Shown: positions 1,735 through 54,980 of the stretch, in pieces
Layout: every line of letters starts with the position of its first letter
Numbering within the stretch: the first letter of the stretch is position 1
Source: an uncultured Anaerolineales bacterium
GTDB taxonomy: Bacteria > Chloroflexota > Anaerolineae > Anaerolineales > UBA11858
Assembly: GCA_964589145.1 (NCBI GenBank)
Contig: CAZPSL010000213.1
Location: 1-54,980 of the forward strand
DNA length: 54,980 bases
Direction of reading: 5' to 3'
Notes under the pieces: model-generated
What the model was told of the DNA's origin: nothing
The model's database searches: none
Seen by the model: the letters and a program-made list of their open reading frames with translations, nothing else
Translations under genes and position numbers: made by a program

Positions 1735-1740
1735 GGGGGT

Positions 1741-1965
1741 TGGATGTTGGAGGTTGAAAGTTGAAAGTTGGAGGTTGAAGGTTGGAGGTTGAAAGTTGAA
1801 AGTTGGTTGGAGGTTGGGGAGGGTGGATGAGCGAGGGGGATCAGGGGGCTCAGGGAGATTCCCAATCCCCGATACCTGCTCCCTGATTACCCGATCCCCA
1901 CTCCCCAATCCCCGATTACCGATCCCCAATCCCTGATCACCTGATCACCTGATACCTGATTTCTT
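1741..1965. repeat. Short-period degenerate tandem arrays (GTTGRRR heptamers, then CCC(C/T)GAT(T/C)A-type units)
   Basis: gttgaaa/gttggag/gttgaag units run from about 1750 to 1830. gatcaggg..ccctgatc, cccaatcc and cctgatca units run from about 1835 to 1965. The array fills the spacer between the serA-like gene and the DUF1015 start. Confidence 0.85.
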
Positions 1966-1973
1966 GCTCCCAA

Positions 1974-23463: not shown

Positions 23464-23568
23464 CCGCCGCCCCCCATCGCGCTGAGCGGAGACGGCGTCA
23501 GCCGTCGCAGTCGAAGCGCACGCACCCAGTGGCGCCGCGCTTACGCCATCCGACACGATGCCAACCGG

Positions 23569-23609
23569 CAACCTGTAACCTTCAACCTGCAACCTGAAAC
23601 CTTCCAACC
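23569..23609. repeat. CAACCTN heptamer array immediately upstream of wecB
   Basis: caacctgtaaccttcaacctgcaacctgaaaccttccaacc ends 5 nt before the ATG at 23615. Confidence 0.8.
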
Positions 23610-23614: not shown

Positions 23615-24724
23615 ATGCCCCCTCTCAAAATCCTCACCATCTTCGGCACACGGCCTGAAGCCGTAAAAATGGCGCCCGTTGTTCGGGAACTCGCCCGCAC
23701 CCCCGGGGTGGAAGCGCGCGTTTGCGTCACCGCGCAGCACCGCGAAATGCTCGACCAGGTACTCAACCTGTTCGGCATCACCCCCGACATTGACCTCGAC
23801 CTGATGCGCCCCGGTCAATCGCTGGCGGAACTGACCGCCCGCGTTTTCACTCACCTCGACCCCGTGCTGAGCGATTTTCAGCCCGATTGGGTGCTCGTCC
23901 AGGGCGATACCACCACGGTGATGGCCTCCGCCCTGCTGGCCTACTACCACCGCATCAGGGTCGGGCACGTGGAAGCGGGGCTGCGCACCGGCGACAAGTT
24001 CCAGCCCTTCCCGGAGGAGATCAACCGCCGGGTGGCGGGCGTGGTCGCCGACCTGCACTTCGCTCCCACCGAATGGGCGCGGCAGAACCTCCTGCGCGAA
24101 AACGTCCCCGACGAGCAGATCATCGTCACCGGCAACACCGTGATTGACGCCCTGCGCTGGGTCACGCAGCAGCCGTTCGATTTCGCAGCCTTCAACTTCC
24201 AGCCTGCCGCCTTCAACCGTTTGGTGCTGGTCACCGCGCACCGCCGCGAGAACTTCGGCAAACCCCTCGAAAACATTTGCGAGGCCATCCGCACCCTCGC
24301 CGACCATTACGCCGGGGAGGTGCAGTTCGTCTATCCCGTGCATCTCAACCCCAACGTGCAGGAGCCGGTTCACCGTATCCTGGGGAACCAGCCCCACGTC
24401 ACCCTGCTGCCCCCGCTGGATTACCTGCCGCTCGTCCACCTGATGAAGCGCGCTACCCTGGTGCTGACCGATTCCGGCGGGATTCAGGAAGAAGCCCCCG
24501 GGCTGGGAATCCCGACCCTGGTGCTGCGCAACACCACCGAGCGGCCGGAGGGCGTGGAGGCTGGCACCCTCAAACTGGTCGGCACCGACCCCGAAGTGAT
24601 CGTCCGCGAAGCCCGCCGTCTGCTTGATGACCCCGCCGCGCACGCCGCCATGTCCGGAGCGAAGAACCCCTACGGAGACGGTCACGCTGCCGAGCGGATT
24701 GTATCGGCACTGCTGAACCTGTAA
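23615..24724 (+). CDS. wecB: UDP-N-acetylglucosamine 2-epimerase (non-hydrolysing)
   Basis: 369-aa ORF with [35 protein letters not shown] and TDSGG.QEEAP blocks. Confidence 0.92.
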
Positions 24725-24767
24725 CCTTCAACTTTCAACCTTCAACCTTCAACTTTCAACATCCAAC
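24715..24767. repeat. CAAC(C/T)TT heptamer array bridging the wecB stop and the next start codon
   Basis: gaacctgtaaccttcaactttcaaccttcaaccttcaactttcaacatccaac. It begins in the last codons of wecB and ends at the ATG at 24768. Confidence 0.85.
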
Positions 24768-25262
24768 ATGGATTTCATCACCCGCCTTGCTTACCTGCGC
24801 CGGAAACCACTCATCGGCAAACTGGCTTACTACGCGCTCAAACTCCTGGGCGTGGAACTGCCGCGTTCCGTGCCCGTCGGCGAGGGGCTGGAAATCGCCC
24901 ACGGCGGCTTCGGGATTGTGATCCACTCCAGGGCGCGCATCGGGAAACGGGTCAAACTCTACCCCGGAGTCACCCTCGGGCGGGCGGACATCTACCGGCC
25001 CGCGTCCGAATCGCGCTTCGAGGGCATCGTCATCGAAGACGATGTGATCCTCGCCCCGGGGTGCAAAATCCTGTGCAAGGAGGGCGTGCTGCGCGTCGGC
25101 CGCGGCACGGTGATTGGCGCAAACGCCGTCCTGCTGCAATCCACCGGTGAATGGGAGATTTGGGCGGGAGTCCCCGCGCGGCGAGTTGGGAGAATCAACG
25201 AAGCGGCGGGTCAGCGAGTCAGCGAATCAGCGAACCAACCCGCTGACTCGCCGAATCGCTGA
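24768..25262 (+). CDS. Left-handed beta-helix (hexapeptide-repeat) acyl/acetyltransferase, serine-acetyltransferase-like
   Basis: 164-aa ORF with hexapeptide-like repeats (IGKRVKLYPGVTLG, IEDDVILAPGCKI, VGRGTVIGANAVL). The C-terminal 17 residues are encoded by an octamer repeat array. Confidence 0.7.
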   Translation: MDFITRLAYLRRKPLIGKLAYYALKLLGVELPRSVPVGEGLEIAHGGFGIVIHSRARIGKRVKLYPGVTLGRADIYRPASESRFEGIVIEDDVILAPGCKILCKEGVLRVGRGTVIGANAVLLQSTGEWEIWAGVPARRVGRINEAAGQRVSESANQPADSPNR

Positions 25263-25283
25263 ATCGCTGAATCGCTGAATCGT
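25210..25283. repeat. Octamer array in inverted halves (CAGCGARY x3 / GAATCGCT x3-4)
   Basis: gtcagcgagtcagcgaatcagcgaacc...ccgaatcgctgaatcgctgaatcgctgaatcgt. The two halves are reverse complements. The array covers the 3' end of the acetyltransferase ORF and the whole spacer up to the ATG at 25284. Confidence 0.85.
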
Positions 25284-26408
25284 ATGCCCCGCATCGCTCT
25301 CATCCCTCAGGTTCATGGCGTCGGTGGAATGGTCTCGTTCCGGGCCAAATTCACCGCCGCACTGGAAGCGCGCGGCATCGAAATTGTGCCGCTCCCGCGC
25401 CTCACGGCGCGCGATTCCCTGCTCATCATCGGCGGCACGCGTGACCTGCCCGCCCTGTGGCGCGCCAAACGCCGCGGCGTGCGGATTGTCCAGCGCCTGG
25501 ACGGGATGAACTGGCTGCACCGAAAACTGCCCACCGGCGTGCGTCACTACCTGCGGGCGGAGTACGGCAACCTGATTTTGCGGCTCATCCGCAATCGCTT
25601 TGCCGACCACATCGTTTACCAAAGCGAATTTTCCCGCCGCTGGTGGGAGCGCGTCCACGGCGCAGCCCCCGTGCCCCATTCCATCGTTTACAACGCGGTT
25701 GACCTCAGCATCTACACCCCTAACCCCCTAACTCCTAACTCCTTATCCCCCAACCTTCAACCTTCAACTTTCAACCCTCACCGCATCCTCCTCGTCGAAG
25801 GCTCCCTCACCGGCGGCTACGAACTCGGCCTGGAGACCGCCATCCGCCTCGTGGAACGCCTGAACACCCTTCACCGTGCCGACCTCGCTTCCATCGCGCT
25901 GACCGGAGACGAAAACGGTGACAGCCGCCAAAACCGAAGCGCCCGCGCCCCGGATTTCCCCGCCGAACTCGTCATTGCCGGGCGCGTGCCGGACTCCGTC
26001 AAGGAACGCTGGGCGCGGGAGACGGACATCCCCATCACCTGGGCGGGACTCCTGCCCCCGGAACGCATCCCCGACCTCGACCGCTCCGCGCACCTGCTCT
26101 ACGCGGGCGACATCAACGCCGCCTGCCCCAACGCCGTGATCGAAGCCCTGGCGTGCGGCTTGCCTGTGCTCGCCTTCGACACCGGCGCGCTCCCCGAACT
26201 GGTCACCGGCGACGCGGGCCGCATTGTCCCCTACGGCGGCAACCCCTGGAACCTCGATCCGCCCGATGTGGACGCCCTCGCCCGTGCCGCGCTCGAAATT
26301 CTGCGCGGCCAGCCCCGTTTCCGCCGCGCCGCCCGCGCCCGTGCCGAAGCCGCCTTTGCGCTGGACACGATGGTGGACGGGTATTTGCAGACGCTGGGAG
26401 TTTTTTGA
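25284..26408 (+). CDS. GT4-family (GT-B fold) glycosyltransferase with a repeat-encoded interdomain linker
   Basis: 374-aa ORF. The N-terminal Glyco_trans_4-like half and the C-terminal half (EALACGLPVLAFDTGALPELV) are joined by TPNPLTPNSLSPNLQPSTFNPH, which is encoded by a heptamer array. Confidence 0.75.
   Translation: MPRIALIPQVHGVGGMVSFRAKFTAALEARGIEIVPLPRLTARDSLLIIGGTRDLPALWRAKRRGVRIVQRLDGMNWLHRKLPTGVRHYLRAEYGNLILRLIRNRFADHIVYQSEFSRRWWERVHGAAPVPHSIVYNAVDLSIYTPNPLTPNSLSPNLQPSTFNPHRILLVEGSLTGGYELGLETAIRLVERLNTLHRADLASIALTGDENGDSRQNRSARAPDFPAELVIAGRVPDSVKERWARETDIPITWAGLLPPERIPDLDRSAHLLYAGDINAACPNAVIEALACGLPVLAFDTGALPELVTGDAGRIVPYGGNPWNLDPPDVDALARAALEILRGQPRFRRAARARAEAAFALDTMVDGYLQTLGVF
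25717..25781. repeat. Heptamer array (CCTAACY / CAACCTT units) lying in frame inside the GT4 ORF
   Basis: cccctaaccccctaactcctaactccttatcccccaaccttcaaccttcaactttcaaccctcac. Confidence 0.85.
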
Positions 26409-27856: not shown

Positions 27857-28986
27857 ACGTACAGCGTACAGCGTACTCCGTACATTTCCCCGGAAAACTT
27901 GCCCTTCAGCAGCGCGTCATCCCCGCGTACCGCGCCCCGTTTTTCGATTTGCTGGCTGAATCCTGCAAGGGCGGACTGACGCTGTTCGCCGGGCGGCCGC
28001 TGCCCGTGGAGGGGATTGCCGCCGCCGAGCGATTTCAATTTGTGCGTCTTGTGACTACACGCAATCACCACTTCCGAGACCCGCAATCACCGCTCTACCT
28101 CTGCTGGCAGGCGGGCATTTTGGATTGGCTCGAAGCCACTGACCCCGACGCACTGGTTGTGGAAGCCAACCCCCGCTACCTGAGCACCTACCAGGCCGTG
28201 CGCTGGATGCACCGCCGCGGCAGACCCGTCCTGGGCTGGGGATTGGGCGCGCCGCGCGGCGGCAATCCGCTGGAGCGGAGGGTGCGCCTGAACTTCCTGC
28301 GCGCCCTCGACGGGGTGATTGCCTACTCGCGGCGGGGGGCGGCGGAATACCGTGCCCTGGGGCTGGAACGCGTTTTCGTGGCGCACAACGCCGTCAGCCC
28401 CCGCCCCGCCGCGCCGCCCCCGGTGCGGGACATCCCCGCGGACGGGCGGGGTACGGTACTCTTTGTAGGACGGCTGCAAGCCCGAAAACGGCTGCCCCTC
28501 CTGATGCGGGCCTGCGCCGCGCTCCCCAGGGAGATGCAGCCGCGCCTCGTCATCGTCGGAGATGGCCCGGAATCCGCCCGTCTTCAGGCGCTGGCATCCG
28601 AGATTTATCCCCAGACCGAGTTCGCAGGCGCAAAACACGGGGTGGAACTGGAACCTTACTTCGCCGCCGCGGATTTGTTCGTCCTGCCGGGGACGGGCGG
28701 GCTGGCGGTGCAGCAGGCGATGGCGCACGCCCTGCCGGTGATTGTGGCGCAGGGCGACGGCACGCAGGATGACCTGGTGCGCCCGGAGAACGGCTGGCAA
28801 ATCCCGCCCGGCGACCTGGATGCCCTGACCGCCGCCCTGCACGCCGCTCTCTCGGATTGGCCCCGTCTGCGGGCGATGGGGGCGGAATCCTACCGCATTG
28901 TGGCGGAAGAAATCAACATCGAGACGATGGCCGCCGCCTTTGTAAACGCACTTTGCATTTCAAAGGTGAAAGTCCTGGAGGCATGA
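27853..28986 (+). CDS. GT4-family glycosyltransferase
   Basis: 377-aa ORF whose ATG overlaps the upstream stop (ATGA). C-terminal EFAGAKHG..L..YFAAADLFVLPG.GGLAVQQAMAHALPVIV block. The first codons are encoded by a CGTACAG heptamer array (27857-27885). Confidence 0.78.
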   Translation: MNVQRTAYSVHFPGKLALQQRVIPAYRAPFFDLLAESCKGGLTLFAGRPLPVEGIAAAERFQFVRLVTTRNHHFRDPQSPLYLCWQAGILDWLEATDPDALVVEANPRYLSTYQAVRWMHRRGRPVLGWGLGAPRGGNPLERRVRLNFLRALDGVIAYSRRGAAEYRALGLERVFVAHNAVSPRPAAPPPVRDIPADGRGTVLFVGRLQARKRLPLLMRACAALPREMQPRLVIVGDGPESARLQALASEIYPQTEFAGAKHGVELEPYFAAADLFVLPGTGGLAVQQAMAHALPVIVAQGDGTQDDLVRPENGWQIPPGDLDALTAALHAALSDWPRLRAMGAESYRIVAEEINIETMAAAFVNALCISKVKVLEA

Positions 28987-38017: not shown

Positions 38018-38082
38018 CAGAACTCCTGTGTTTGATGTGGCTCGCGGGTTCCTCCCGCGCAGCCGTGATGTCACCCGCCGGT

Positions 38083-38316
38083 CAGGGATTGGGGTTCACC
38101 GGCGACCGCGCGGGTCGTCGCCAAATCCCAATTCCTAACTCGAGGGCGGGTGTTGAAGAATGGGCAGCGGATAGAGCAACGGATAGGGAAACGGATAAAC
38201 GGAGAGCAAGGGCAGCGGATAAGAAGCGGATTAGCGGATAACGGATGTCAGACGATACCGAATCTCCAATCCCTAATCCCCAACTTTCCAACTGCCGACA
38301 ACCAAATCCCCACCCT
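38083..38316. repeat. Long degenerate short-period repeat tract in the rpsO-pnp spacer
   Basis: Left end cagggattggggtt. Middle cggatagagcaacggatagggaaacggataaacgga..gcggataagaagcggattagcggataacggat. Right end ctccaatccctaatccccaactttccaac. The outer arms are reverse-complementary. Confidence 0.8.
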
Positions 38317-38320
38317 TTAA

Positions 38321-38360
38321 GAAAAAAGAGTAGATGATAGACCTGCTCGACCATCTACTC
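38321..38360 (-). terminator. Rho-independent terminator of rpsO
   Basis: On the minus strand, gagtagatg gtcgagcaggtctat catctactc is followed by ttttttc. Confidence 0.75.
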
Positions 38361-38371
38361 CGGTCACACAA

Positions 38372-38644
38372 TTACTTGCGGCGAATGCCGAGTTGGTCGG
38401 TCAACGCCAGGTAACGCTGGTAATCGTTGCGGCGGACATAAGCCAGCAACCGGCGGCGGCGGCCAACCAGTTTTAGCAGCCCGCGGCGGGATGATTCGTC
38501 GTGCTTGTGGATACGCAGGTGATCCGTCAGATGGGTGATCCGCTTGGTGAGGATCGCGATCTGCACCTCAGGCGAGCCGGTATCTCCTTCGTGGCGGCCA
38601 TACTCGCGCATCAGTTCCTGTTTTGTTTCTTTATCCATAGTCAT
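38372..38644 (-). CDS. rpsO: 30S ribosomal protein S15
   Basis: 90-aa ORF with [35 protein letters not shown]. Confidence 0.93.
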
Positions 38645-42678: not shown

Positions 42679-42683
42679 CACGA

Positions 42684-45965: not shown

Positions 45966-46004
45966 TGGTTTGGAAAACGGGCTACGCCCGTTTTCCAAAC
46001 CATC
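45964..46004. repeat. Perfect 19-bp-stem hairpin overlapping the pcrA stop codon
   Basis: gatggtttggaaaacgggc tac gcccgttttccaaaccatc. No U tract follows on the plus strand. Confidence 0.8.
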
Positions 46005-46015
46005 TAAAAAACATT

Positions 46016-46510
46016 ATGCCCATCCTTGCGAAAGACTCCCTCGAAATCATCAGCCGCAGCGCAGAGCAGACCCGCCGCGTGGGGATGCGCCTGGGCGCGC
46101 TGCTCGCACCGGGTGACATCGTCTGTCTGGCGGGCGACCTGGGGAGCGGCAAAACCACCTTCGTGCAGGGGCTGGCGGCAGGCTGGGGCTCACTCGACCC
46201 GGTTTCCAGCCCCACCTTCGTCATCGTCAACGTCTACCGGCGGCTGGATGCGGGCGAACTCTACCATCTGGATGCCTACCGCCTGAGCGGTCCCGCCGAG
46301 GCCGCCGACCTTGACCTGGACATGATGATCGAGCGCGGTCCCCTCGTCGTCGAGTGGGCGGACATCATCGCCGATGCCCTGCCTTCGGAGCGCATCTGGG
46401 CTGACCTGCGCTATGTGGACGAAACCCAGCGCGACCTGATTTTCTCCGCCCGCGGCGACCGCCACCGGCACCTGCTGACCGAATTCCGCCGTCAGGTTTA
46501 CGGCGCATGA
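46016..46510 (+). CDS. tsaE: tRNA t6A37 biosynthesis ATPase TsaE
   Basis: ORF trimmed to the ATG at 46016. LAGDLGSGKTTFVQG and SPTF.I.N.Y..L.H.D.YR motifs. Confidence 0.88.
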   Translation: MPILAKDSLEIISRSAEQTRRVGMRLGALLAPGDIVCLAGDLGSGKTTFVQGLAAGWGSLDPVSSPTFVIVNVYRRLDAGELYHLDAYRLSGPAEAADLDLDMMIERGPLVVEWADIIADALPSERIWADLRYVDETQRDLIFSARGDRHRHLLTEFRRQVYGA

Positions 46511-46574: not shown

Positions 46575-46762
46575 AGATGCTGTGGCAACATTTTCCCCCT
46601 CCCCTGCCCTCACCCCTGACCCCTCTCCCTTCGGGAGAGGGGAACCAAAGCGGGAATTTTTGGGAACTGCTTCCTTTCCCCCCCTCCCCTGCCCTCCCCC
46701 CGGTGGGGGGGAGGGTTGGGTGGGGGAACACCGTCATTCCACAACATTTACTCGCACTCATT
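46575..46762. repeat. Degenerate copy of the modular repeat family
   Basis: Contains the modules cccctcccctgccct, ccctctcccttcgggagagggg and gggagggttgggtggggg. Ends with a TIR-like attccacaacatttactcgcactc. Confidence 0.5.
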
Positions 46763-47469: not shown

Positions 47470-47474
47470 ACGGC

Positions 47475-47645
47475 GGGCAGGGAACAGGTATCGGGTATCA
47501 GGTATCAGGGAACAGGGATCGGGCAAACGGAGAGAGAGAGGCAGACAGGCAAAAACGGAGCAGCCTTGCAAACCTGCCACTTTTCTGCTTGCGCACTTGT
47601 AAACCTGCATACTTGCTAACATGCCCACTTGCAAACATGCCCACA
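47475..47645. repeat. Two adjacent short-period arrays (GGTATCR/GGGAACA heptamers; ACTTGCAAAC(A/C)TGCC about-16-mers)
   Basis: First array: ggtatcgggtatcaggtatcagggaacagggatcggg. Second array: ccttgcaaacctgccac..cacttgtaaacctgcatacttgctaacatgcccacttgcaaacatgccc, which runs into the first codons of the rimI ORF. Confidence 0.8.
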
Positions 47646-48148
47646 CCCGTCCCATGCGCGTGGACGACCTGCCCCAGGTGCAGGCGCTCGACGAACTGAC
47701 GTTCAGCAGCCCCTGGCCGCCGGAAGCCTTCCGCTACGAACTGCTGGAGAACCCCAACGGGCACTGCTGGGTTGCCGAAGCACAGGACGGACGCATTGTC
47801 GGCTTCATCGTCTGCTGGCTGGTAGTGGACGAAATGCACATCGCCAGCATCGCGGTGCATCCCGAACACCGCGGGCGGGGTATCGCCAGACAGATGGTGA
47901 TCACCAGCCTGCGGGCGTTGATTGCGCGCGGCGCGGTCTCCGCCACGCTGGAGATGCGCGAGAGCAACCTCGCCGCCCAGGGGTTGTACCGTCATTTTGG
48001 GTTTCGGCAGGTGGGCGAGCGCCAGCGTTACTACGCCGACACCGGCGAAGCCGCCCTGCTGATGACGGTCGCCCCCCTGGGGCCGGATTATCTGGCGTGG
48101 CTGGATTCCGGGGCCGGGAATCCCTGGCAGGGCAGCAACCCGCCCTGA
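47621..48148 (+). CDS. rimI: Ribosomal-protein-alanine N-acetyltransferase (GNAT)
   Basis: 175-aa ORF with IAV.PE.RGRGIA..M GNAT core. The start may instead be the ATG at 47654 (MRVDDL...), because the first 11 codons lie in a repeat array. Confidence 0.82.
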   Translation: MPTCKHAHTRPMRVDDLPQVQALDELTFSSPWPPEAFRYELLENPNGHCWVAEAQDGRIVGFIVCWLVVDEMHIASIAVHPEHRGRGIARQMVITSLRALIARGAVSATLEMRESNLAAQGLYRHFGFRQVGERQRYYADTGEAALLMTVAPLGPDYLAWLDSGAGNPWQGSNPP

Positions 48149-48288
48149 AAGCCGCCCCGCAGCACCCGCCCCGGGATGCGAATCAAACCGTGGAGGCACA
48201 CGTTCCACGCGAAATCCTGACCAAAATCCGGCTGAACGCGCTGGAGGCATCATTCTGCTTCCGCGGTTCGCCACCTTCTGAGGAGAAC

Positions 48289-49617
48289 ATGAACACCAAA
48301 GACCAACTGCTCCAAAAACTTGAAGACAAAACCGCCCGTGTGATGGTGCTGGGGCTGGGCTATGTGGGCCTGCCTTTTGCCACCGTCTTCGCCGAGGCGG
48401 GCTTCACCGTCACCGGCATTGACCTGGATGCCGAAAAGGCCGCGAAAATCAACCGCGGCGAGAGTTACATCCCCGATGTGCCTACCGAGCAGGTTGCCCG
48501 GCTGGTGGCGGATGGCAAACTCAGCGCCACCAGCGATTTTTCCGTGCTGGCGGAGGCCGACGCGGTCAGCATCTGCGTGCCGACCCCGCTGCGCAAAACC
48601 GGCGACCCCGACCTGGCGTACATCCTTTCGGCGACGGACGAACTGGCAAAGTACATGCACCCCGGCATGGTGGTGGTGCTGGAATCGACCACCTACCCCG
48701 GCACCACCCGCGAGGTGCTGCTGCCCAAACTGGGCGAGGCCCAAAACCTGACCGTGGGCGATGACTTTTTTCTGGCGTTTTCGCCGGAGCGGGTGGACCC
48801 CGGACGCGAAGACTGGACGACGATCAACACCCCGAAGGTGGTCGGCGGCATCACCGCGACCTGCGGCGAGGTCGCTGCCGCCTGGTACCGCGGCGCGCTG
48901 GAGACTGTGGTGCCCGTCTCCTCCGCGGAGGTGGCGGAGATGGCGAAACTGCTGGAAAACACCTTCCGCATGATCAACATCGGGCTGGTGAACGAGATGG
49001 CGATCATGTGTGCCCGGCTGGGCATTGACGTTTGGGAGGTGATTGACGCCGCCGCCACCAAGCCTTTCGGCTTTATGAAATTCACACCCGGCCCCGGGCT
49101 GGGCGGCCACTGCATCCCGATTGACCCGCTCTACCTCTCCTGGAAATTGCGGGCATTGAACTACACCGCCCGTTTTATTGAACTGGCCTCCGAAATCAAC
49201 CTGGGGATGCCGCGCTACGTGATCGGTCTGGTGCAGGATGCCCTCAACGAGCAGCGCAAGCCCGTCAAGGGGAGCAAAATCCTGGTTTTGGGGGCGGCCT
49301 ACAAGCCCGATATTGACGACCTGCGGGAATCCCCGGCCCTGGATGTGATCGGCCTCCTTCAGCAGAAGGGCGCCCTGGTGGCGTATCACGACCCCTTTGT
49401 GCCGGTCATCCGCGCCGACAGCCAGCACGCCCTCCCGGAGATGCACAGCGTCCCCGACCTGATGGAAGCCGTCCGCACCGCCGATTGCGTGGTGATCATC
49501 ACCAACCACTCGGTTTACGATTATCCCGCCATTCTGGAGGCTGCCCGGTGCATTGTGGACACGCGCAACGCCCTCGGCGACCTGGGACGGGATGACCCCA
49601 AGGTAACACGGCTGTGA
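48289..49617 (+). CDS. UDP-sugar 6-dehydrogenase family (UDP-GlcNAc/UDP-ManNAc dehydrogenase-like)
   Basis: ORF 47629..49617 trimmed to the ATG at 48289 (RBS aggag). VLGLGYVGLPFA Rossmann start and catalytic GPGLGGHCIPIDP. Confidence 0.85.
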   Translation: MNTKDQLLQKLEDKTARVMVLGLGYVGLPFATVFAEAGFTVTGIDLDAEKAAKINRGESYIPDVPTEQVARLVADGKLSATSDFSVLAEADAVSICVPTPLRKTGDPDLAYILSATDELAKYMHPGMVVVLESTTYPGTTREVLLPKLGEAQNLTVGDDFFLAFSPERVDPGREDWTTINTPKVVGGITATCGEVAAAWYRGALETVVPVSSAEVAEMAKLLENTFRMINIGLVNEMAIMCARLGIDVWEVIDAAATKPFGFMKFTPGPGLGGHCIPIDPLYLSWKLRALNYTARFIELASEINLGMPRYVIGLVQDALNEQRKPVKGSKILVLGAAYKPDIDDLRESPALDVIGLLQQKGALVAYHDPFVPVIRADSQHALPEMHSVPDLMEAVRTADCVVIITNHSVYDYPAILEAARCIVDTRNALGDLGRDDPKVTRL

Positions 49618-49627
49618 TTTTTGTTAC

Positions 49628-49676
49628 GGGTTGAAAGTTGAATGTTGAACGTTCAACCTGCAACCAGCCCTCAACC
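49628..49676. repeat. GTTGAAN heptamer array with central palindrome
   Basis: gggttgaaagttgaatgttgaacgttcaacctgcaaccagccctcaacc. Confidence 0.8.
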
Positions 49677-49687
49677 AGCGGAGCGTT

Positions 49688-50668
49688 ATGAAAACTTACC
49701 TCATCACCGGCGTTGCCGGGTTCATCGCCGCACGGGTGGCGGAAATGCTGCTCGACGCGGGGCACGCAGTCACAGGCATTGATAATCTCAACGATGCCTA
49801 CGACGTTCGCATGAAGGAGTACCGCCTGCGCCAATTGCAGGAGCGGGAGAACTTCGAGTTCATCCGGCTGGACATCAGCGATTGGGAAGCCCTGCTTCAA
49901 TCCCCGGTCTCCGATCTTCAATTTTCAGCCGTTATCAACCTGGCCGCCCGCGCCGGGGTGCGCGCCAGCATCGAAGACCCCTGGGTGTACGTGGATACCA
50001 ACATGACCGGCACGCTCAACCTGCTGGAATTCAGCCGCCGCGCCGGAATCCCGAAGTTTATCCTGGCGTCCACTTCCAGCATCTACGGCCTGAACGCGCC
50101 GCTGCCCACGCCCGAAACCGCCGACAGCAGCCGCCCGCTCCAGGCGTATGCCGCCAGCAAAAAGGGTGCCGAGGCGATGACCCACGCTTACCATCACCTT
50201 TACGGGATTGACGCCACCATCGTGCGCTTTTTCACCGTTTACGGTCCCGCCGGACGTCCTGATATGTCGGTGTTCCGCTTCATCCGCTGGATTGTGGAGG
50301 GCGAGACCCTGCACCTCAACGGTGACGGCACACAGACCCGCGGCTTCACCTACATTGACGACATCGCCCGCGGGGTGATTCAGGCCATCAGGCCGGTGGG
50401 CTACGAGATCGTCAACCTCGGCGGGCATGAGAGCATTTCGATGAACGGCCTGATCGCGCTGATTGAACAGCAGACGGGGCGGCAGGCGAAGGTGACGCAT
50501 CACCCCTTCCACACCGCCGACATGAAGGCCAACCTCGCCGACGTGACCAAAGCGGGGGAACTGCTGGGCTGGGAGCCGCGCGTCGGGCTGGAAGAGGGCA
50601 TCACCCGCACGATTGACTGGTACATGCAGAACCGCTTCTGGGCGAAAGACATCGCGTTGAATGTGTGA
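49688..50668 (+). CDS. NAD-dependent nucleotide-sugar epimerase (UDP-glucuronate 4-epimerase-like SDR)
   Basis: 326-aa ORF with GVAGFIA, the YAASKKGAE catalytic triad region, and RFFTVYGP.GRPDM. Confidence 0.85.
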   Translation: MKTYLITGVAGFIAARVAEMLLDAGHAVTGIDNLNDAYDVRMKEYRLRQLQERENFEFIRLDISDWEALLQSPVSDLQFSAVINLAARAGVRASIEDPWVYVDTNMTGTLNLLEFSRRAGIPKFILASTSSIYGLNAPLPTPETADSSRPLQAYAASKKGAEAMTHAYHHLYGIDATIVRFFTVYGPAGRPDMSVFRFIRWIVEGETLHLNGDGTQTRGFTYIDDIARGVIQAIRPVGYEIVNLGGHESISMNGLIALIEQQTGRQAKVTHHPFHTADMKANLADVTKAGELLGWEPRVGLEEGITRTIDWYMQNRFWAKDIALNV

Positions 50669-50696
50669 TGGCCGTTGCAGGGCTGGCCGGGTCGCG

Positions 50697-50817
50697 GGTT
50701 GGTTAAAAGCTGAAGGTTGAAAGTTGAAAGTTGAAAGTTGAAGGTTTCCTAGACCTAACCAGCAACCTGAAACCTACAACCTGAAACTTGCAACCCCTAA
50801 CCTGCAACCTGCAACCG
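50697..50817. repeat. Long heptamer array in inverted halves (GTTGAAR units, then CAACCTG/AAACCT units)
   Basis: First half: ggttggttaaaagctgaaggttgaaagttgaaagttgaaagttgaagg. Second half: cctaaccagcaacctgaaacctacaacctgaaacttgcaacccctaacctgcaacctgcaacc. It ends 7 nt before the ATG at 50825. Confidence 0.85.
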
Positions 50818-50824
50818 TTTCCCC

Positions 50825-52162
50825 ATGTCCCGTTTTCACCGCATCTTTGCCAACCCGCTCCTGCGCCGGATTATCCGCAATTCGGGGTATCTGTTCAGCG
50901 CGCGGGGGGCTTCGGCGGCGATGTCCATGCTGCAATCCATCCTGGCGGCGCGGCTGCTGGGGCCTTCGACCTTCGGGGTACTGGGGGCGCTGACCCAGTT
51001 TACCAGCGTGCTCAACCGCTTTGCCTCCTTTCGCATTGACGAGTTGGTGGTGCGCTATGTGGGGCATTACGAGGAACGCGGCGACCAGCCTCGGGCCGCG
51101 GCGACCTTCAAATTGGCGGCCTCCCTCGAAATTTCCGGCTCGGTACTCGCTTTCGGGTTGATCTGGCTTCTCGCGCCCCTGGGAGCAAAATTCTTTATCC
51201 ACGATCCCCAGATGGTGCAGTGGTTCCGCATCTACGGCCTGATTGTGCTCTTCAACCTGATTTACGAATCGGCCACCGGAATTTTGCAGATCTTCGACCA
51301 TTTTCGGGTGATCGCGGTCACGATGGCGGCGCAGTCGGCTTTCACGCTCACGCTGATCGTCCTGGCGGTGGTCTTCCGTCAGGGGCTGATGGCGGTGGTG
51401 CTGGCCTACATGGCGGGCAAGGCGCTCGGCTCGGTGGTGATTACCGCGGCGGCGCTGCGGGCGGCGGGGCAGGCCTGGGGCGCGGGATGGTGGCGCACGC
51501 CGCTCCGCCTGCTGAAAAGCGAGCGGCGCAGTATGCTCACCTTTGCCTTCAGCACCAACCTGAGCAGCACCATCAGCCTGGTTGCCAAGGACAGCGAGGT
51601 GCTGTGGGTTTCGGCGTTTTTGGGCACCACCGAAGCGGGTTACTACAAAACCGCGCTGGCGCTCACCAACCTGCTGCAAATTCCGGTCAGCCCCCTGCCC
51701 AAGGTCACTTTCCCGGAACTTTCCCGCGAGATTGCCCGCAAAAACTGGGCGAATGTGCGCTATGTGCTCAAGCAGGGTTCCCGGCTGGCGGCGGCTTACT
51801 CCCTGCCGGTGATGCTGACGCTGGTGCTGTTCGGCCAGCCGATTTTGCGCCTGACCTACGGCGCCGATTACCTGCCCGCTTACCCCGCGCTGGTGATTTT
51901 GCTCATCGGCTATACCTTTACCAACATTTTCTACTGGAACCGCGTGGCCCTGCTGGCGCTGGCGCGCCCGGTTTTCCCCACGCTGGTCAACCTGAGCGGG
52001 ATGCTGATAAAAGTGTCGCTGATTTTTGTGCTGGTGCCGGTTTACGGCTACCTGGCCTTTGCCGCCCTGCTCTCCGGCTACTACGTTTACACCGTCGGCA
52101 TCGCTGCGGGCCGCGTCCTGCTGGATTTGCGCGCCCGCCTGCGTGATGCGCAAACCCTGTGA
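50825..52162 (+). CDS. Wzx-like polysaccharide flippase (MOP superfamily)
   Basis: 445-aa ORF with about 12-14 TM segments. The N-terminal ...NSGYLFSARGASAAMSMLQSILAARLLGPSTFG is typical of polysaccharide-biosynthesis transporters. Confidence 0.75.
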   Translation: MSRFHRIFANPLLRRIIRNSGYLFSARGASAAMSMLQSILAARLLGPSTFGVLGALTQFTSVLNRFASFRIDELVVRYVGHYEERGDQPRAAATFKLAASLEISGSVLAFGLIWLLAPLGAKFFIHDPQMVQWFRIYGLIVLFNLIYESATGILQIFDHFRVIAVTMAAQSAFTLTLIVLAVVFRQGLMAVVLAYMAGKALGSVVITAAALRAAGQAWGAGWWRTPLRLLKSERRSMLTFAFSTNLSSTISLVAKDSEVLWVSAFLGTTEAGYYKTALALTNLLQIPVSPLPKVTFPELSREIARKNWANVRYVLKQGSRLAAAYSLPVMLTLVLFGQPILRLTYGADYLPAYPALVILLIGYTFTNIFYWNRVALLALARPVFPTLVNLSGMLIKVSLIFVLVPVYGYLAFAALLSGYYVYTVGIAAGRVLLDLRARLRDAQTL

Positions 52163-52209: not shown

Positions 52210-52397
52210 GGGTGCAGGCACAAGATGTAGAAATTGAGCGGTCATATGGGCGCTGCTTCCTTTCCCCCCTCCCCTGCCCTCCCAAAATTTTCCGCTTTGG
52301 TTCCCCTCTCCCTTCGGGAGATGGGTTAGGGGTGAGGGCGGGGGGAGGGTTGGGTGGGGGGAAAAACATCGTTGTTCTACATCTTTTGCTTGCACCC
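52210..52397. mobile_element. Complete modular MITE-like element (188 bp)
   Basis: Ends are gggtgcaggcacaagatgtagaaat ... gttctacatcttttgcttgcaccc. Internal modules ccctcccctgccctccc..gggagggttgggtgggg and ccctctcccttcgggagatggg. Confidence 0.8.
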
Positions 52398-53998: not shown

Positions 53999-54972
53999 CC
54001 CTTTCCTCCCGCTCAAAAACCGCCCTGCGCTGGACTCTTGGCATCGTGCTGGGGCTGTTCTTTCTCTACCTTGCGCTGCGCGACGTGCCGCTGGGCGAAG
54101 TTCGTGACGCGCTCGTCCAGGCCAGCCCTGCCTGGATCGCGCTCGCGCTGGCGGGCGTGGCTTTCAACAACTTTGCCAAAGTCTGGCGATGGCAGGTGCT
54201 GCTGGCAGAGCGCAGCATCCATGTCCCCTTCTCGCTGGGGCTGCGGGCGACCCTCATCGGGCAGATGCTCAACTACGGTCTCCCGGCCCGCACCGGCGAT
54301 CTCTCGCGGGCTTACCTGGTCGGCATTCAGGGGACGGGAACGGTCTACGCGCTGGGCACCATCGCACTGGAAAAAGTCTTCGATACGCTGCTTTACGGGC
54401 TGCTGTTCCTGGTCACCGCTTTGCTGTTCCCGCTTCCGGGATGGCTGAACCGCTCCGGGGGGACGCTGCTGGCGGTCGCCGCCCTGATGACGGCCGCCGC
54501 CCTGTTTTTGGCGCGCTACCCGGAAGCGCTGTTCAACCTGGGGCTGCGCATCACCCGCCTTTTGCCAGAATCCCTCCGAAGCCGGATTGAGCCTCGCCTG
54601 CGGGACGCGCTGGAAACCCTGGGCGTGATCCGCGACGGGCACGCGCTGTTCTCCCTCACCCTGTGGTCGCTTTTCATCTGGTTTACGGCGGTGTTCCCCA
54701 ACTGGGCTTTGCTGCGCGCCCTTGACCTGCCCGGAAGTTGGCTGGCGGCGATGACCGTTTTGCTCGTCCTTCAGGCAGTGGTTTCCCTGCCGGGCGTGCC
54801 GGGGCGGGTGGGAGTTTTCCAGTACGCCTGCATTCTGGCACTGGGCCTGTTCGGCGTGGACGATACGGCGGCATTCTCCTACGGCGTGCTGCTGCAAACC
54901 GTGGCTGTCCTTCCGCTGGTGATTGGCGGTGTGGTATCCTTGTCGGGTAGTCGGGTAGTTGGGAATTGGTAA
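53995..54972 (+). CDS. LPG-synthase-TM / UPF0104 'flippase-like' membrane protein
   Basis: ORF trimmed to the ATG at 53995, which overlaps the upstream stop (ATGA). About 8 TM segments. N-terminal L..V..A....W...ALA..... K..RWQ.LL pattern. The last codons lie in an octamer array (54941-54978). Confidence 0.65.
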   Translation: MTLSSRSKTALRWTLGIVLGLFFLYLALRDVPLGEVRDALVQASPAWIALALAGVAFNNFAKVWRWQVLLAERSIHVPFSLGLRATLIGQMLNYGLPARTGDLSRAYLVGIQGTGTVYALGTIALEKVFDTLLYGLLFLVTALLFPLPGWLNRSGGTLLAVAALMTAAALFLARYPEALFNLGLRITRLLPESLRSRIEPRLRDALETLGVIRDGHALFSLTLWSLFIWFTAVFPNWALLRALDLPGSWLAAMTVLLVLQAVVSLPGVPGRVGVFQYACILALGLFGVDDTAAFSYGVLLQTVAVLPLVIGGVVSLSGSRVVGNW

Positions 54973-54980
54973 ACTGGGAG

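What the first reader, a model, noticed from the sequence alone, without database searches (positions are those of the whole stretch)
50697..50817. Short-period (7-8 nt) degenerate tandem arrays sit exactly at gene boundaries, often as inverted halves
Seen in the sequence: arrays of imperfect heptamers or octamers fill the spacer immediately before start codons and spill into ORF ends. Unit types include GTTGAAR/CAACCTT, CCTGATCA, GGTATCR, CAGCGAAT/GAATCGCT, CGTACAG, GTCGGGTA and CGGATAR. Positions:
- 1741-1965
- 23569-23609
- 24715-24767
- 25210-25283
- 25717-25781
- 27857-27885
- 38083-38316
- 47475-47645
- 49628-49676
- 50697-50817
- 54941-54978

Several consist of one unit followed by its reverse complement, as at 25210-25283, 49628-49676 and 50697-50817. 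These can fold into long imperfect hairpins. The unit sequence differs between loci, but the period and the placement are constant.

Several genes directly downstream of an array (wecB, the acetyltransferase, the first GT4 and the flippase) lack an obvious Shine-Dalgarno sequence.

Inference: these arrays are not explained by any feature type I know. Candidates are unstructured CA-rich translation leaders, operon-internal processing or insulation sites, or slippage-prone contingency tracts concentrated in surface-glycan loci.
Basis: partly seen in the sequence, partly recalled or inferred. Interest (0 to 1): 0.65.

Follow-up and report, generated by a model that had tools for sequence, protein, structure and literature searches.

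The report
Heptamer repeat arrays between operon genes
The short 7-8 nt tandem arrays between genes are real and far beyond chance, but they are a new-lineage example (Anaerolineales, Chloroflexota) of an already described, functionally unresolved class of bacterial heptamer repeats, so the finding is moderately interesting, not new in kind.

Summary
Period-7/8 arrays cover 682 nt of the window, against about 9 nt in shuffles. They are about 5-fold enriched in non-coding DNA and occur only between co-directional genes. The genes directly behind them lack a Shine-Dalgarno site that this organism otherwise uses. The window comes from an uncultured Anaerolineales bacterium from hydrothermal vents. 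Across 1.34 Mb of relatives, period 7 dominates (38 of 62 arrays), and arrays recur at the same junctions with different units.

Adjacent arrays of opposite GC skew are always ordered G-rich then C-rich (40:0 over three sequence sets). Ordinary hairpins show no such bias. Rehm et al. 2015 already reported this order, the non-coding bias and the closeness to ORF ends for Xanthomonas GGGAATC repeats. Related classes are cyanobacterial STRR, Beggiatoaceae TAACTGA and Chloroflexus (GATAGRA)n.

Only some arrays form significant hairpins: z = -5.1 at 25185-25286, but -1.4 at the focal site. Relatives reach -5.7 to -9.7. The focal array has the same length in four near-identical assemblies, while more distant strains replace whole spacers.

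Best reading: slippage-born, selection-filtered intercistronic repeats that give a G-poor, SD-less leader and, when complementary, a stop-to-start hairpin. Function is inferred, not shown.

The parts
50697..50746 (+). Focal site, 5' arm: (GTTGAAR)x6.4, G-rich. It begins about 30 nt after the epimerase stop codon (50666-50668).
   Evidence: TRF; sequence. Same length in L202, L203 and L204, with 1-3 substitutions.
50757..50816 (+). Focal site, 3' arm: (AACCTGC / CAACCTK)x8.6, C-rich. It ends 8 nt before the flippase ATG (50825). There is no SD.
   Evidence: TRF; leader is 10% G. The predicted helix closes 1-2 nt before the ATG, but z is only -1.44. Contig depth is 10-50x that of the flanks, so this is a dispersed family.
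49628..49676 (+). GTTGAAA x3.4 followed by CAACCTG-type units, between UDP-sugar dehydrogenase and epimerase. A GGAG SD remains downstream of the hairpin.
   Evidence: (z = -1.94). X2 carries a 17-nt insertion after 49664. L060 has the same unit family at the orthologous junction.
47475..47523 (+). G-rich array (GGTATCR / GGGAACA), starting 6 nt after the tsaB stop.
   Evidence: In strains X3 and X4 the whole spacer 47470-47646 is replaced by a 39-nt CAACYTK-type spacer.
47590..47645 (+). C-rich 16-nt-period array (CTTGCAAAC-type), ending 8 nt before the rimI ATG (47654). No SD.
   Evidence: rimI identified by Pfam GNAT hits.
1739..1816 (-). On the sense (-) strand: (CAACCTC / CAACTTT)n, 0% G. 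It ends about 5 nt before the DUF1015 ATG (1734-1732).
   Evidence: ATG and reading frame worked out.
1857..1960 (-). On the sense (-) strand: G-rich arrays (GGGGATY, GGTGATCA) following the 2-hydroxyacid dehydrogenase stop (1974). They are not complementary to the downstream C-rich array.
   Evidence: z = +0.64. A G4 motif lies at 1890-1913.
23561..23609 (+). (CAACCTG)x5.9, unpaired, ending 5 nt before the wecB ATG (23615). No SD.
   Evidence: array part unstructured; 7% G.
24716..24767 (+). (AACCTTC / AACTTTC)x5-7. It fills the whole wecB-acetyltransferase spacer and abuts the ATG at 24768. 0% G.
   Evidence: (MFE about 0 in the array). Contig depth is about 20x the flanks.
25192..25282 (+). 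Inverted 8-mers: (GAATCAGC)x5 then (CGCTGAAT)x5. It is a long hairpin that encodes the C-terminal tail and stop of the acetyltransferase and closes 2 nt before the GT4 ATG (25284).
   Evidence: dG = -47.7 kcal/mol, z = -5.06, 0 of 200 shuffles as stable.
25717..25780 (+). In-frame C-rich arrays (CCCCTAAC, CAACCTT) inside the GT4 ORF, in the linker between its two Rossmann-like domains. They are translated as TPNPLTPNSLSPNLQPSTFNP.
   Evidence: Pfam domain limits at residues 142 and 223; protein sequence. Replaced by a segment of different length in X2.
27858..27884 (+). (CGTACAG)x3.9, right after the overlapping FkbM stop / GT4 ATG (27853). It is either the first 11 codons of GT4 or its leader, if the true start is the TTG near 27898.
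   Evidence: No length variant seen in X1-X4.
38072..38374 (-). rpsO-pnp spacer, read on the sense (-) strand. It holds an rpsO terminator hairpin (about 38327-38361), G-rich GGGGATT-type units, degenerate AYCCG (CGGATAR) units, and a long leader hairpin (about 38072-38153) with heptamer-like arms that buries the pnp GTG start.
   Evidence: z = -4.43, 0 of 100 shuffles as stable; Pfam S15 and PNPase.
54942..54963 (+). (GTCGGGTA)x2.8, G-rich, in the last codons of the LPG-synthase-TM gene (stop at 54970-54972).

Best explanation
**Identity.** The arrays are the Anaerolineales (Chloroflexota) representatives of a known class of bacterial repeat, dispersed heptanucleotide simple-sequence repeats. 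Described members are cyanobacterial STRR, Xanthomonas GGGAATC, Nostoc GGGGAYT, Beggiatoaceae TAACTGA and Chloroflexus (GATAGRA)n.

**Origin (inferred).** They arise and turn over in place by slipped-strand mispairing with a preferred 7-nt register, less often 8 nt.

**Filtering (shown).** They persist where extra sequence is tolerated: untranslated spacers between co-directional genes, protein tails, and an inter-domain linker.

**Polarity (shown).** The G-rich strand points away from the nearest gene. In the operon transcript, a G-rich array therefore follows the stop codon, and a C-rich, nearly G-free array runs up to the next start codon. Pairs are always ordered G-rich then C-rich.

**Consequence at the RNA level (inferred).**
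- The start-proximal array gives an unstructured, Shine-Dalgarno-less, C/A-rich leader. That is the same leader type roughly half of this organism's genes already use.
- Where the two arrays are complementary, they zip into a long imperfect, register-tolerant hairpin. It begins at or just after the stop codon and closes a few nt before the next start codon.
- Initiation on the downstream gene would then depend on ribosomes terminating upstream (translational coupling) or on endonucleolytic processing.
- Drift in copy number and unit sequence would retune this between strains and species, not act as a rapid on/off switch.
For: **Reality and period.**
- 682 nt in arrays vs about 9 nt in shuffles.
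- Period 7 accounts for 38 of 62 arrays in 1.34 Mb of Anaerolineales sequence; period 8 gives 9 and period 6 gives 2.
- There is a lag-7 excess in non-coding but not in coding DNA of 73 loci that lack TRF-detectable arrays.

**Placement.** 66% of array bases lie in the 13.5% of the window that is intergenic. 9 of 36 co-directional junctions have arrays and 0 of 13 others do.

**Polarity.**
- Adjacent arrays of opposite skew are G->C in 31/31 metagenome pairs, 7/7 pairs in relatives and 2/2 in the window; C->G is never seen.
- For CAACCTK arrays with a complementary partner the count is 11:0.
- Ordinary hairpins show no bias: 85 vs 68 intergenic, 171 vs 190 coding.
- Single arrays in Anaerolineales obey the same rule in 9 of 10 cases.
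- The same rule is published for Xanthomonas.

**Leaders.** The array-preceded genes lack SD although the organism uses AAGGAG elsewhere. Leaders are 0-12% G in five of six. The array part is unstructured.

**Hairpins.**
- z = -5.06 at 25185-25286.
- z = -5.7 to -9.7 at the orthologous or similar junctions in L004, L014 and L022. The helix starts at the stop codon and closes 6-26 nt before the AUG.
- The pnp leader hairpin buries the start codon.

**Turnover in place.**
- Orthologous junctions carry arrays with different units: L004 and L014 vs the window, and L060 with the same family as the window.
- Whole-spacer replacement occurs in X3 and X4, and a 17-nt expansion in X2.
- No conserved flanks or target duplications are visible (direct reading).

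**Other.** There is no terminator- or promoter-like excess and no Rfam family.
Against: - No RNA or expression data exist. Three metatranscriptomes held nothing from this organism.
- The focal hairpin is not significantly more stable than shuffles (z = -1.44).
- Two G-rich/C-rich pairs are not complementary at all (1733-1976 gives z = +0.64; also 47470-47653).
- In the taxonomically mixed metagenome set, unpaired CAACCTK arrays between co-directional genes show no sense-strand preference (8 vs 12). The positional trend there is not significant (p = 0.32).
- The arrays are dispensable. Strains X3 and X4 replace a 177-nt array spacer with 39 nt.
- G->C order is invariant under reverse complement. 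So by itself it cannot show that selection acts on the transcript and not on the DNA.
- The 7-nt slippage register is a published hypothesis, not something demonstrated here.
Confidence: 0.55

Rival explanations
1. Neutral by-product. The arrays are selectively inert slippage products with no effect on RNA. Their placement reflects only where insertions are harmless. The G->C order reflects a polar generating mechanism, for example fold-back or template switching favoured at G-rich 3' ends.
For: - The arrays are dispensable and rapidly replaced.
- Unit sequences are unrelated between loci and genomes.
- Several pairs cannot base-pair.
- Most Anaerolineales relatives lack long arrays at the same junctions.
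- G->C order is strand-symmetric, so it needs no transcript-level explanation.
Against: - Arrays end 0-11 nt from start codons and replace the SD region on genes that must still be translated. They are therefore necessarily part of the initiation region.
- Relatives keep a stem-loop at the same junctions even without long arrays.
- Very stable helices that clamp stop to start (z down to -9.7) are unlikely to be without effect on translation.
Confidence: 0.2
2. Contingency (phase-variation) tracts. Frequent gain or loss of units switches or grades expression of surface-glycan genes. The model is the Haemophilus influenzae hmw (ATCTTTC)n 5'-UTR repeat, whose hairpin with a G-rich arm is processed by RNase III.
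For: - The unit is a heptamer SSR with a complementary G-rich arm, as in hmw.
- Glycan junctions are enriched (6/12 vs 3/24, p = 0.036).
- (CGTACAG)x3.9 sits in the first codons of a GT4, where a change of one unit would shift the reading frame.
- Length and content differ between strains.
Against: - The focal array has identical length in four independent assemblies of about 99.5%-identical strains. The 49628-49676 array is identical in L001.
- No indel was seen at 27858-27884 in four metagenomes.
- Arrays also lie in housekeeping operons (rpsO-pnp, tsaB-rimI, serA-like-DUF1015).
- Arm order is opposite to hmw.
- Rehm et al. argued against phase variation for the related repeats on similar grounds.
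Confidence: 0.12
3. Rho-related polarity device. The C-rich, G-free array is a rut-like loading site in an untranslated spacer. The G-rich array, transcribed first, masks it, so transcription into the next gene depends on pairing or on translation.
For: - Arrays of 50-80 nt have 0-10% G and are C-rich and unstructured, which is the classical rut composition (established knowledge).
- A G-first order is what kinetic shielding predicts, and it holds 40:0.
- Paired sites are common in Xanthomonas but 'only a few' in Nostoc. Cyanobacteria lack Rho (my own knowledge).
Against: - There is no evidence that this organism has Rho or uses it here.
- Unpaired C-rich arrays (23561-23609, 24716-24767) would then be unshielded inside an operon.
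- The same positional rule holds for single repeats in Nostoc.
- The 7-nt period is unrelated to known Rho spacing.
Confidence: 0.08
4. Mobile or recombinogenic element. The GTTGAAR/CAACCTK module spreads by transposition or acts as a recombination linker that shuffles glycan gene cassettes.
For: - The same unit family sits at six sites in the window and reaches 10-50x contig depth in four metagenomes.
- It occurs in many habitats.
- Subirana and Messeguer suggested transposition for the Chloroflexus heptamer family.
Against: - There are no conserved termini, no target-site duplications and no associated transposase.
- Unit variants differ from locus to locus (CAACCTG, CAACCTT, CAACCTC, CAACTTT).
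- Many other unit types share the same architecture.
- Apparent joints between arrays in the contig data have only 20-33 nt anchors. They are most simply other loci or assembly cross-links.
- The one real rearrangement point, L202 vs the window at 52398, lies in a different repeat.
Confidence: 0.05

Closest known systems
Xanthomonas GGGAATC and Nostoc GGGGA(C/T)T heptamer repeats (Rehm et al. 2015, PMC4692102)
   Same: - 7-nt tandem units dispersed over the genome, with a strong non-coding bias and mostly between co-directional ORFs. Few lie between divergent ORFs.
- They are close to ORF ends, with the nearest ORF on the 5' side of the G-rich strand.
- Paired sites are always in convergent (G-rich then C-rich) orientation.
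- Length and sequence vary between related strains.
- The window even contains the same unit type (GGGGATY at 1857-1960).
   Different: - Here there is no single G4-prone consensus. At least eight unrelated unit types occur in 55 kb, and the commonest (GTTGAAR/CAACCTK) cannot form a G-quadruplex.
- Only 1890-1913 meets a G3+ loop 1-7 motif.
- The phylum is different (Chloroflexota).
- Here the C-rich arrays abut start codons and stand in for the SD region.
TAACTGA direct repeats of marine Beggiatoaceae, cyanobacteria and Bacteroidetes (MacGregor 2015, PMC4679880)
   Same: - Heptamer direct repeats lie within a few nt upstream of start codons and overlap the expected ribosome-binding site.
- Downstream genes mostly lack SD.
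- Repeats occur in ribosomal-protein and other housekeeping operons as well as elsewhere.
- A translational role was proposed but not tested.
   Different: TAACTGA is one specific sequence, used in one orientation, which suggests a sequence-specific binder. Here the unit sequence varies from site to site, which argues against a single sequence-specific protein. The arrays here are also longer and are often paired with a G-rich partner.
Haemophilus influenzae hmw 5'-UTR (ATCTTTC)n repeat (Rapun-Araiz et al. 2025, PMC12721329)
   Same: A transcribed heptamer SSR pairs with a G-rich arm into a long imperfect hairpin upstream of a start codon. It is the only member of this kind with a dissected mechanism: RNase III processing, with repeat number tuning expression.
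   Different: - Arm order is opposite. In hmw the pyrimidine SSR is 5' and the G-rich stretch, which is not itself an array, is 3'.
- It is a single locus behind a promoter, not a dispersed intercistronic family.
- hmw changes copy number rapidly. The focal array here is length-stable across near-identical strains.
Cyanobacterial STRR (short tandemly repeated repetitive) heptamers and Chloroflexus aurantiacus (GATAGRA)n satellites (PMC4692102 introduction; PMC6749651)
   Same: Several heptamer families are dispersed through one genome, mostly in non-coding DNA. There is a precedent within Chloroflexi (22 scattered heptamer-derived satellites).
   Different: Those reports are catalogues without junction-level anatomy. 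Units differ. The class Anaerolineae was not covered in the papers read.
REP/BIME intergenic palindromes of enterobacteria (own knowledge)
   Same: They are dispersed, transcribed, intercistronic stem-loops between co-directional genes, and they can stabilise upstream mRNA and modulate downstream expression. This is a functional analogy for the hairpin-forming subset.
   Different: REPs share one conserved palindromic consensus, are not tandem 7-mers, and are linked to RAYT transposases. The window has its own REP-like element, a separate thing: a 29-nt perfect palindrome at five sites.

Membership tests
Dispersed heptanucleotide SSRs (STRR / GGGAATC / TAACTGA class) | Head-to-tail tandem units with a 7-nt period, three or more copies | tested here: met
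   TRF. Period 7 accounts for 38 of 62 arrays in 1.34 Mb.
Dispersed heptanucleotide SSRs (STRR / GGGAATC / TAACTGA class) | The same unit family recurs at many separate loci of one genome | tested here: met
   GTTGAAR/CAACCTK occurs at six sites in the window. Contig depth over the arrays is 10-50x that of the flanks in four metagenomes.
Dispersed heptanucleotide SSRs (STRR / GGGAATC / TAACTGA class) | Strong bias to non-coding DNA, close to ORF ends | tested here: met
   66% of array bases lie in the 13.5% of the window that is intergenic. Arrays end 0-11 nt from start codons.
Dispersed heptanucleotide SSRs (STRR / GGGAATC / TAACTGA class) | Paired sites only in convergent orientation (G-rich then C-rich); nearest ORF on the 5' side of the G-rich strand (Rehm 2015) | tested here: met
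   G->C vs C->G is 40:0 and 11:0. Single arrays obey the rule in 9 of 10 cases. Ordinary hairpins are unbiased.
Dispersed heptanucleotide SSRs (STRR / GGGAATC / TAACTGA class) | Under-represented between divergent genes | tested here: inconclusive
   0 of 7 divergent and 0 of 6 convergent spacers have arrays, vs 9 of 36 co-directional (p = 0.09). The sample is too small.
Dispersed heptanucleotide SSRs (STRR / GGGAATC / TAACTGA class) | Length and sequence variation between related strains or species at the same junction | tested here: met
   Spacer replacement in X3 and X4 and a 17-nt insertion in X2. Different units at orthologous junctions. There is no length change between about 99.5%-identical strains.
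G-quadruplex-forming GGGNATC repeats (subclass of Rehm 2015) | Four or more G3+ tracts with short loops within the array | tested here: not met
   Only 1890-1913 matches G3+ with loops of 1-7 nt. The focal array and most others (GTTGAAR, CAGCGAAT, CGTACAG) cannot form G4.
Phase-variable contingency SSR (hmw type) | High-frequency copy-number change within or between near-clonal populations | tested here: not met
   The focal array has the same length in the window, L202, L203 and L204. Only contigs were available, so within-population heterogeneity could not be examined.
Phase-variable contingency SSR (hmw type) | SSR pairs with a G-rich arm in a long 5'-UTR hairpin | tested here: inconclusive
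   Hairpins are significant at 25185-25286 (z = -5.06) and in relatives (z = -5.7 to -9.7). The focal site gives z = -1.44. Arm order is opposite to hmw.
Phase-variable contingency SSR (hmw type) | Expression depends on repeat number; RNase III cleavage of the hairpin | not testable with these tools
   No RNA reads from this organism.
REP/BIME elements | One conserved imperfect palindrome consensus shared by all copies | tested here: not met
   Units differ between sites. A separate 29-nt palindrome family does exist in the window.
Integron attC sites | Inverse core RYYYAAC at the 5' end and core GTTRRRY at the 3' end of an imperfect palindrome after each cassette; integrase nearby | tested here: not met
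   The order here is GTTRRR... then ...YYAAC on both strands, which is the reverse of attC (direct reading). The arms are tandem repeats. No integrase was found among the Pfam-scanned ORFs.
CRISPR arrays | Repeats of 23-50 nt separated by unique spacers of similar length | tested here: not met
   The period is 7-8 nt with no spacers.
Intrinsic terminators / curated RNA families | GC-rich stem followed by a U-tract; or a match to an Rfam model | tested here: not met
   No terminator-like site lies at any array and the count is at shuffle level. There are no Rfam hits at gathering threshold. The only classical terminator is the one after rpsO.

The most novel reading that the evidence does not exclude
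The G-rich-then-C-rich heptamer module may be a general, cross-phylum intercistronic RNA device. In this reading it is a register-tolerant clamp that joins the stop codon of one gene to the SD-less start of the next. Its arm order would be enforced because C-rich RNA must never be exposed before its G-rich partner (shielding from Rho or a nuclease), or because a dedicated polar mechanism builds it. Heptamer SSRs would then be a widespread, evolvable system for setting translation ratios inside operons, not junk.
Probability: 0.12. Interest if true: 0.7.

Novelty: new member of a known kind. Interest (0 to 1): 0.35.

Why it matters
An excess of heptamer repeats in bacterial intergenic DNA has been on record since 2007 without an accepted function. 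This window adds three things.
- **A new phylum-level example with many unit types in one locus.** The shared properties (7-nt period, junction placement, G->C order, G-poor SD-less leader) are therefore independent of unit sequence. That argues against a sequence-specific binding protein and for a structural or compositional constraint.
- **A testable geometry.** The stop-to-start hairpin suggests translational coupling in operons of organisms that often lack SD sites.
- **A practical point.** These arrays break short-read assemblies and cause ORF mis-calls (merged or over-extended genes) in Chloroflexota MAGs.

Tried and rejected
- **RNA evidence.** The only metatranscriptomes linked to these samples (X12-X14) held nothing from this organism.
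- **Extending the genome sample.** Exact-protein look-ups failed for the response regulator and DUF1015. The flippase look-up gave L202, with about 9 kb of new sequence and no further arrays.
- **In-ORF arrays as insertions.** No orthologues of the affected GT or acetyltransferase genes were among the fetched loci, so this is argued only from Pfam domain limits.
- **ORF-start proximity test on 120 metagenome loci.** The first result was 36 vs 22, and 15 vs 2 within 7 nt. I rejected it as confounded. C-rich arrays are open in all frames, TTG is created at array ends, and in-ORF arrays (17 sense vs 1 antisense, a trivial stop-codon effect) inflate it. The cleaner tests were not significant.
- **Substitution hot-spot.** 3 differences in 341 array nt vs 35 in 8666 genic nt, p = 0.17. 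Not supported.
- **Identities considered and rejected.** CRISPR, integron attC (wrong core order), REP/BIME, intrinsic terminators, sigma-70 promoters, any Rfam family, tRNA, and assembly artefact.
- **General G4 explanation.** Rejected because most units lack G-tracts.
Full report
**1. What is there**

The window is 59.6% G+C. It comes from an uncultured Anaerolineales (Chloroflexota) bacterium found in hydrothermal-vent metagenomes. The epimerase at 49688-50668 has its best species-level match at 81% amino-acid identity in a Chloroflexi MAG. All 80 retrieved relatives except one 1.9-kb contig binned to another group are Anaerolineales or Chloroflexota. The runs that hold the sequence are vent metagenomes.

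Period-7/8 arrays with score >=40 cover 682 nt. The mean in 30 dinucleotide-preserving shuffles is 9 nt and the maximum is 110 nt. The arrays are not assembly artefacts, because independent JGI, ENA and Logan assemblies carry the same sequences.

**2. Gene context**

I built the gene map from ORF length, codon-position GC and Pfam hits. The arrays lie in these junctions:
- 2-hydroxyacid dehydrogenase > DUF1015 (minus strand)
- UDP-sugar dehydrogenase > wecB > hexapeptide acetyltransferase > GT4
- FkbM methyltransferase > GT4
- rpsO > pnp (minus strand)
- tsaB > rimI
- UDP-sugar dehydrogenase > epimerase > flippase
- the 3' end of an LPG-synthase-TM gene

Two corrections to naive ORF calls matter here.
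- The long ORF 47629-49617 is really two genes: rimI (47654-48148, a GNAT) and a dehydrogenase starting near 48290.
- DUF1015 starts at the ATG at 1734, not at 1929.

Numbers on placement:
- 66% of array bases lie in the 13.5% of the window that is intergenic.
- 9 of 36 co-directional junctions carry an array. None of 13 divergent or convergent spacers does (p = 0.09).
- Glycan-cluster junctions are richer than others (6/12 vs 3/24, p = 0.036). This is one window, and three housekeeping junctions also have arrays.

Arrays are not confined to boundaries.
- 25717-25780 is translated in frame within the inter-domain linker of a GT4.
- The acetyltransferase and LPG-synthase tails are encoded by arrays.
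- The relative L004 has arrays deep in two ORFs, one again in a glycosyltransferase linker.

**3.

*Inverted halves.* This is true at 25192-25282, 49630-49676 and 50701-50816. The arms are only partly complementary.

| Region | z-score vs shuffles |
|---|---|
| 25185-25286 | -5.06 (0 of 200 shuffles as stable) |
| 49618-49690 | -1.94 |
| 50669-50827 (focal) | -1.44 (14 of 200 shuffles as stable) |
| 1733-1976, minus strand | +0.64 |
| rpsO-pnp spacer | -4.43 |

The 1733-1976 spacer has a G-rich and a C-rich array that cannot pair. The unpaired CAACCTY arrays next to wecB and the acetyltransferase are essentially structure-free. The rpsO-pnp spacer has a classical terminator after rpsO and a long leader hairpin whose base includes the pnp GTG.

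*Missing Shine-Dalgarno.* Confirmed. About nine genes, including rpsO, have AAGGAG 7-12 nt upstream. DUF1015, wecB, the acetyltransferase, the first GT4, rimI and the flippase have none. Five of these six have 0-12% G in the 40 nt before the start. Many array-free genes in the window also lack SD and have C/A-rich leaders, so an SD-less C/A-rich leader is a normal initiation context in this organism.

**4. Relatives**

- Most of the 80 related loci have no TRF-detectable 7/8-mers, but L004, L038, L014, L022, L025, L060 and L002 do.
- In L004 the same two junctions as in the window carry G-rich then C-rich heptamer arrays with unrelated units: AGGGACT/TCCCTAA before the epimerase and ATTGGAG/AATCTCC after it.
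- L014 has ATTGGAG/CTCCAAT after the epimerase.
- L060 has a short GGTTGCAGGTT...CAACCTTCAACCTGCAA hairpin where the window has its 49628-49676 array.
- Array-free relatives usually still have a stem-loop at these junctions, often with arms made of two tandem heptamers, for example GACCGCC.GACCGC...GCGGTCG.GCGGTC.
- Lag-7 hexamer repeats are modestly enriched in the non-coding DNA of 73 loci without arrays (5.7 per 10 kb, against about 4.0 at other lags that are not multiples of 3). They are not enriched in coding DNA.
- Over 1.34 Mb, period 7 accounts for 38 of 62 arrays with at least three copies. Period 8 gives 9 and period 6 gives 2.
- The cleaner inverted arrays of relatives fold very significantly (z = -7.05, -9.73, -5.70 and -6.65). 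The helix begins at or next to the upstream stop codon and closes 6-26 nt before the next AUG. Surplus C-rich units are left single-stranded.

**5. Polarity**

In every spacer with two arrays, the G-rich one comes first.
- A unit-agnostic count of adjacent period-7/8 arrays with opposite GC skew gives G->C vs C->G of 31:0 in 120 unrelated metagenome loci, 7:0 in the relatives and 2:0 in the window.
- For CAACCTK arrays with a complementary partner the count is 11:0.
- Ordinary hairpins in the same sequences are unbiased: 85 vs 68 intergenic and 171 vs 190 coding.
- Single arrays in the Anaerolineales follow the equivalent rule, with G-rich arrays next to stops in 6/6 and C-rich arrays next to starts in 3/4.

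G->C order is unchanged by reverse complementation. It therefore cannot reveal the transcribed strand. It does mean that RNA from either strand has the G-rich arm 5' and the C-rich arm 3'.

In the mixed metagenome set, unpaired arrays showed no significant gene-relative preference. My first, more favourable test there was confounded, and I discard it.

**6. Variation between strains**

- Contigs from four vent metagenomes show 10-50-fold depth over the GTTGAAR/CAACCTK arrays, and many contigs end there. The family is dispersed.
- Strains in X3 and X4 replace the whole 177-nt tsaB-rimI spacer with a 39-nt CAACYTK-type spacer.
- X2 has a 17-nt insertion in the 49664 array and a different segment in place of the in-ORF array.
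- By contrast, L202 is 99.5% identical over 9.7 kb. L202, L203 and L204 have the focal array at exactly the same length, with 1-3 substitutions in the left arm. L001 is identical at 49628-49676. Substitution density in arrays is not significantly raised (p = 0.17).

So the arrays turn over much faster than genes, but they are not hypermutable at the scale of near-clonal strains.

**7. Comparison with what is known**

- **Rehm et al. 2015 (PMC4692102).** They cite a 2007 survey that found heptamers over-represented among bacterial SSRs. They describe GGGAATC repeats in Xanthomonas and GGGGAYT repeats in Nostoc with these properties:
  - about 90% intergenic, and mostly between co-directional ORFs
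  - rare between divergent ORFs
  - on average 28 nt from the ORF on the 5' side of the G-rich strand, against 160 nt from the other
  - 70-75 paired sites per genome, always in convergent orientation
  - variable in length and sequence between Xcc and Xac
  - function unresolved

  This is the same anatomy, including the arm-order rule.
- **MacGregor 2015 (PMC4679880).** Describes TAACTGA repeats a few nt upstream of SD-less start codons and proposes a translational role.
- **Subirana and Messeguer 2019 (PMC6749651).** Report 22 scattered satellites derived from (GATAGRA)n in Chloroflexus aurantiacus.
- **H. influenzae hmw (ATCTTTC)n.** This is the only mechanistically dissected case. The transcribed repeat pairs with a G-rich arm, RNase III cleaves the hairpin, and repeat number sets expression. 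Its arm order is opposite.

I found no report for Anaerolineae in the held library. No Rfam family, tRNA, terminator-like excess or promoter-like excess coincides with the arrays. CRISPR, attC and REP identities fail on defining features.

**8. Explanation**

*Shown:*
- The arrays are real, heptamer-dominated and junction-biased.
- They obey the G->C rule.
- They replace the SD region of downstream genes.
- They form significant stop-to-start hairpins in a subset.
- They turn over between strains and species.

*Inferred:*
- They arise by slippage with a 7-nt register.
- Selection filters where and in which order they persist.
- The C-rich arm serves as an unstructured, SD-independent leader.
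- In complementary pairs the helix couples downstream initiation to upstream termination or to processing.

I give this composite reading 0.55. The rivals are a purely neutral by-product with a polar generating mechanism (0.20), contingency switching (0.12), Rho shielding (0.08) and a mobile or recombinogenic element (0.05).

**9. Verdict**

It belongs to a known kind, so it is a new member, not a new class. Its value lies in three points. The class properties hold across many unrelated unit sequences within one locus and in a new phylum. The stop-to-start geometry suggests a concrete test. And the arrays cause assembly breaks and ORF mis-calls in Chloroflexota MAGs.

Noticed in passing
window 7327-7355, 11454-11482, 20570-20598, 29285-29313, 34228-34256: A perfectly conserved 29-nt palindrome (GACTGGCAGTCC-TGGCA-GGACTGCCAGTC) sits at five intergenic sites. 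The copies near 7300-7390 and 20540-20630 share about 90 nt of flank. It is a REP- or MITE-like element, distinct from the heptamer arrays and located in the array-free parts of the window.
   Followed up: partly
window 158-205, 7399-7422, 22022-44, 29214-36, 39648-39809, 46607-46726, 52264-52361; L202 9660-9935 and 13844-14272: There is a dispersed G-tract/C-tract composite element of about 150 nt, with motifs such as GGGAGAGGGGTCAGGGGTGAGGG and a central CCCCTCTCCCTTCGGGAGAGGGG hairpin. The window has 18 G4-type motifs, against 5.7 expected. The near-identical contig L202 diverges from the window exactly inside one copy, at about 52398. That point is either a strain rearrangement or an assembly junction.
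   Followed up: partly
window 26409-27007: A PD-(D/E)XK_3 (GxxExxY-type) gene at 26494-26982 has GC3 of 0.51, against about 0.8 in its neighbours. It is cleanly absent from strains in X2 and X3 (joint 26470/26473 > 26991). It is flanked by repeated CCACTAAGACTCAAAGACAC...TTCGTGTCTTCGTGGT hairpin units, so it is a presence/absence insertion inside the glycan cluster.
   Followed up: partly
window 42657-45965: The UvrD/PcrA-type helicase is interrupted by an intein (Pfam Hint and Intein_splicing hits between the helicase N- and C-terminal domains). The same arrangement is in L202.
   Followed up: no
window 45962-46510 and 47629-49617: Gene-call pitfalls caused by high GC and ORF-open arrays. tsaE (found via L202) overlaps the UvrD stop, and my GC3 caller missed it. 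The 662-aa ORF merges rimI with a UDP-sugar dehydrogenase. ORF 412-1929 over-extends DUF1015 through the array.
   Followed up: yes
L004 13163-13310: An element of about 150 nt, bounded by inverted repeats (GTCAATGTCATTAAGTTAAG ... CTTAACTTAATGACATTGA), is inserted within the G-rich heptamer array upstream of a (CCTCATG/CCTCCTG)x17 array. It is reminiscent of the small mobile elements reported inside cyanobacterial heptamer repeats (my own knowledge).
   Followed up: no
L005, L007, L008, L010, L014, L018, L027: about 60-120 nt upstream of the epimerase start: A sequence-conserved hairpin (TTGACCGCCGACCGC...GCGGTCGGCGKTCTG) lies between the UDP-sugar dehydrogenase and the epimerase in several Anaerolineales species. 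Its arms are two tandem heptamers and the C-rich arm comes first, the opposite order to the long arrays. It may be an attenuator or terminator. It was not tested for covariation.
   Followed up: no
L141 6273-8100 and 12402-12518: One metagenome contig carries very long (CCTGAAA)n arrays of up to about 520 nt, each preceded by the same GTCATCC x3 block. It is a much larger expansion of a related unit in an unidentified organism.
   Followed up: no
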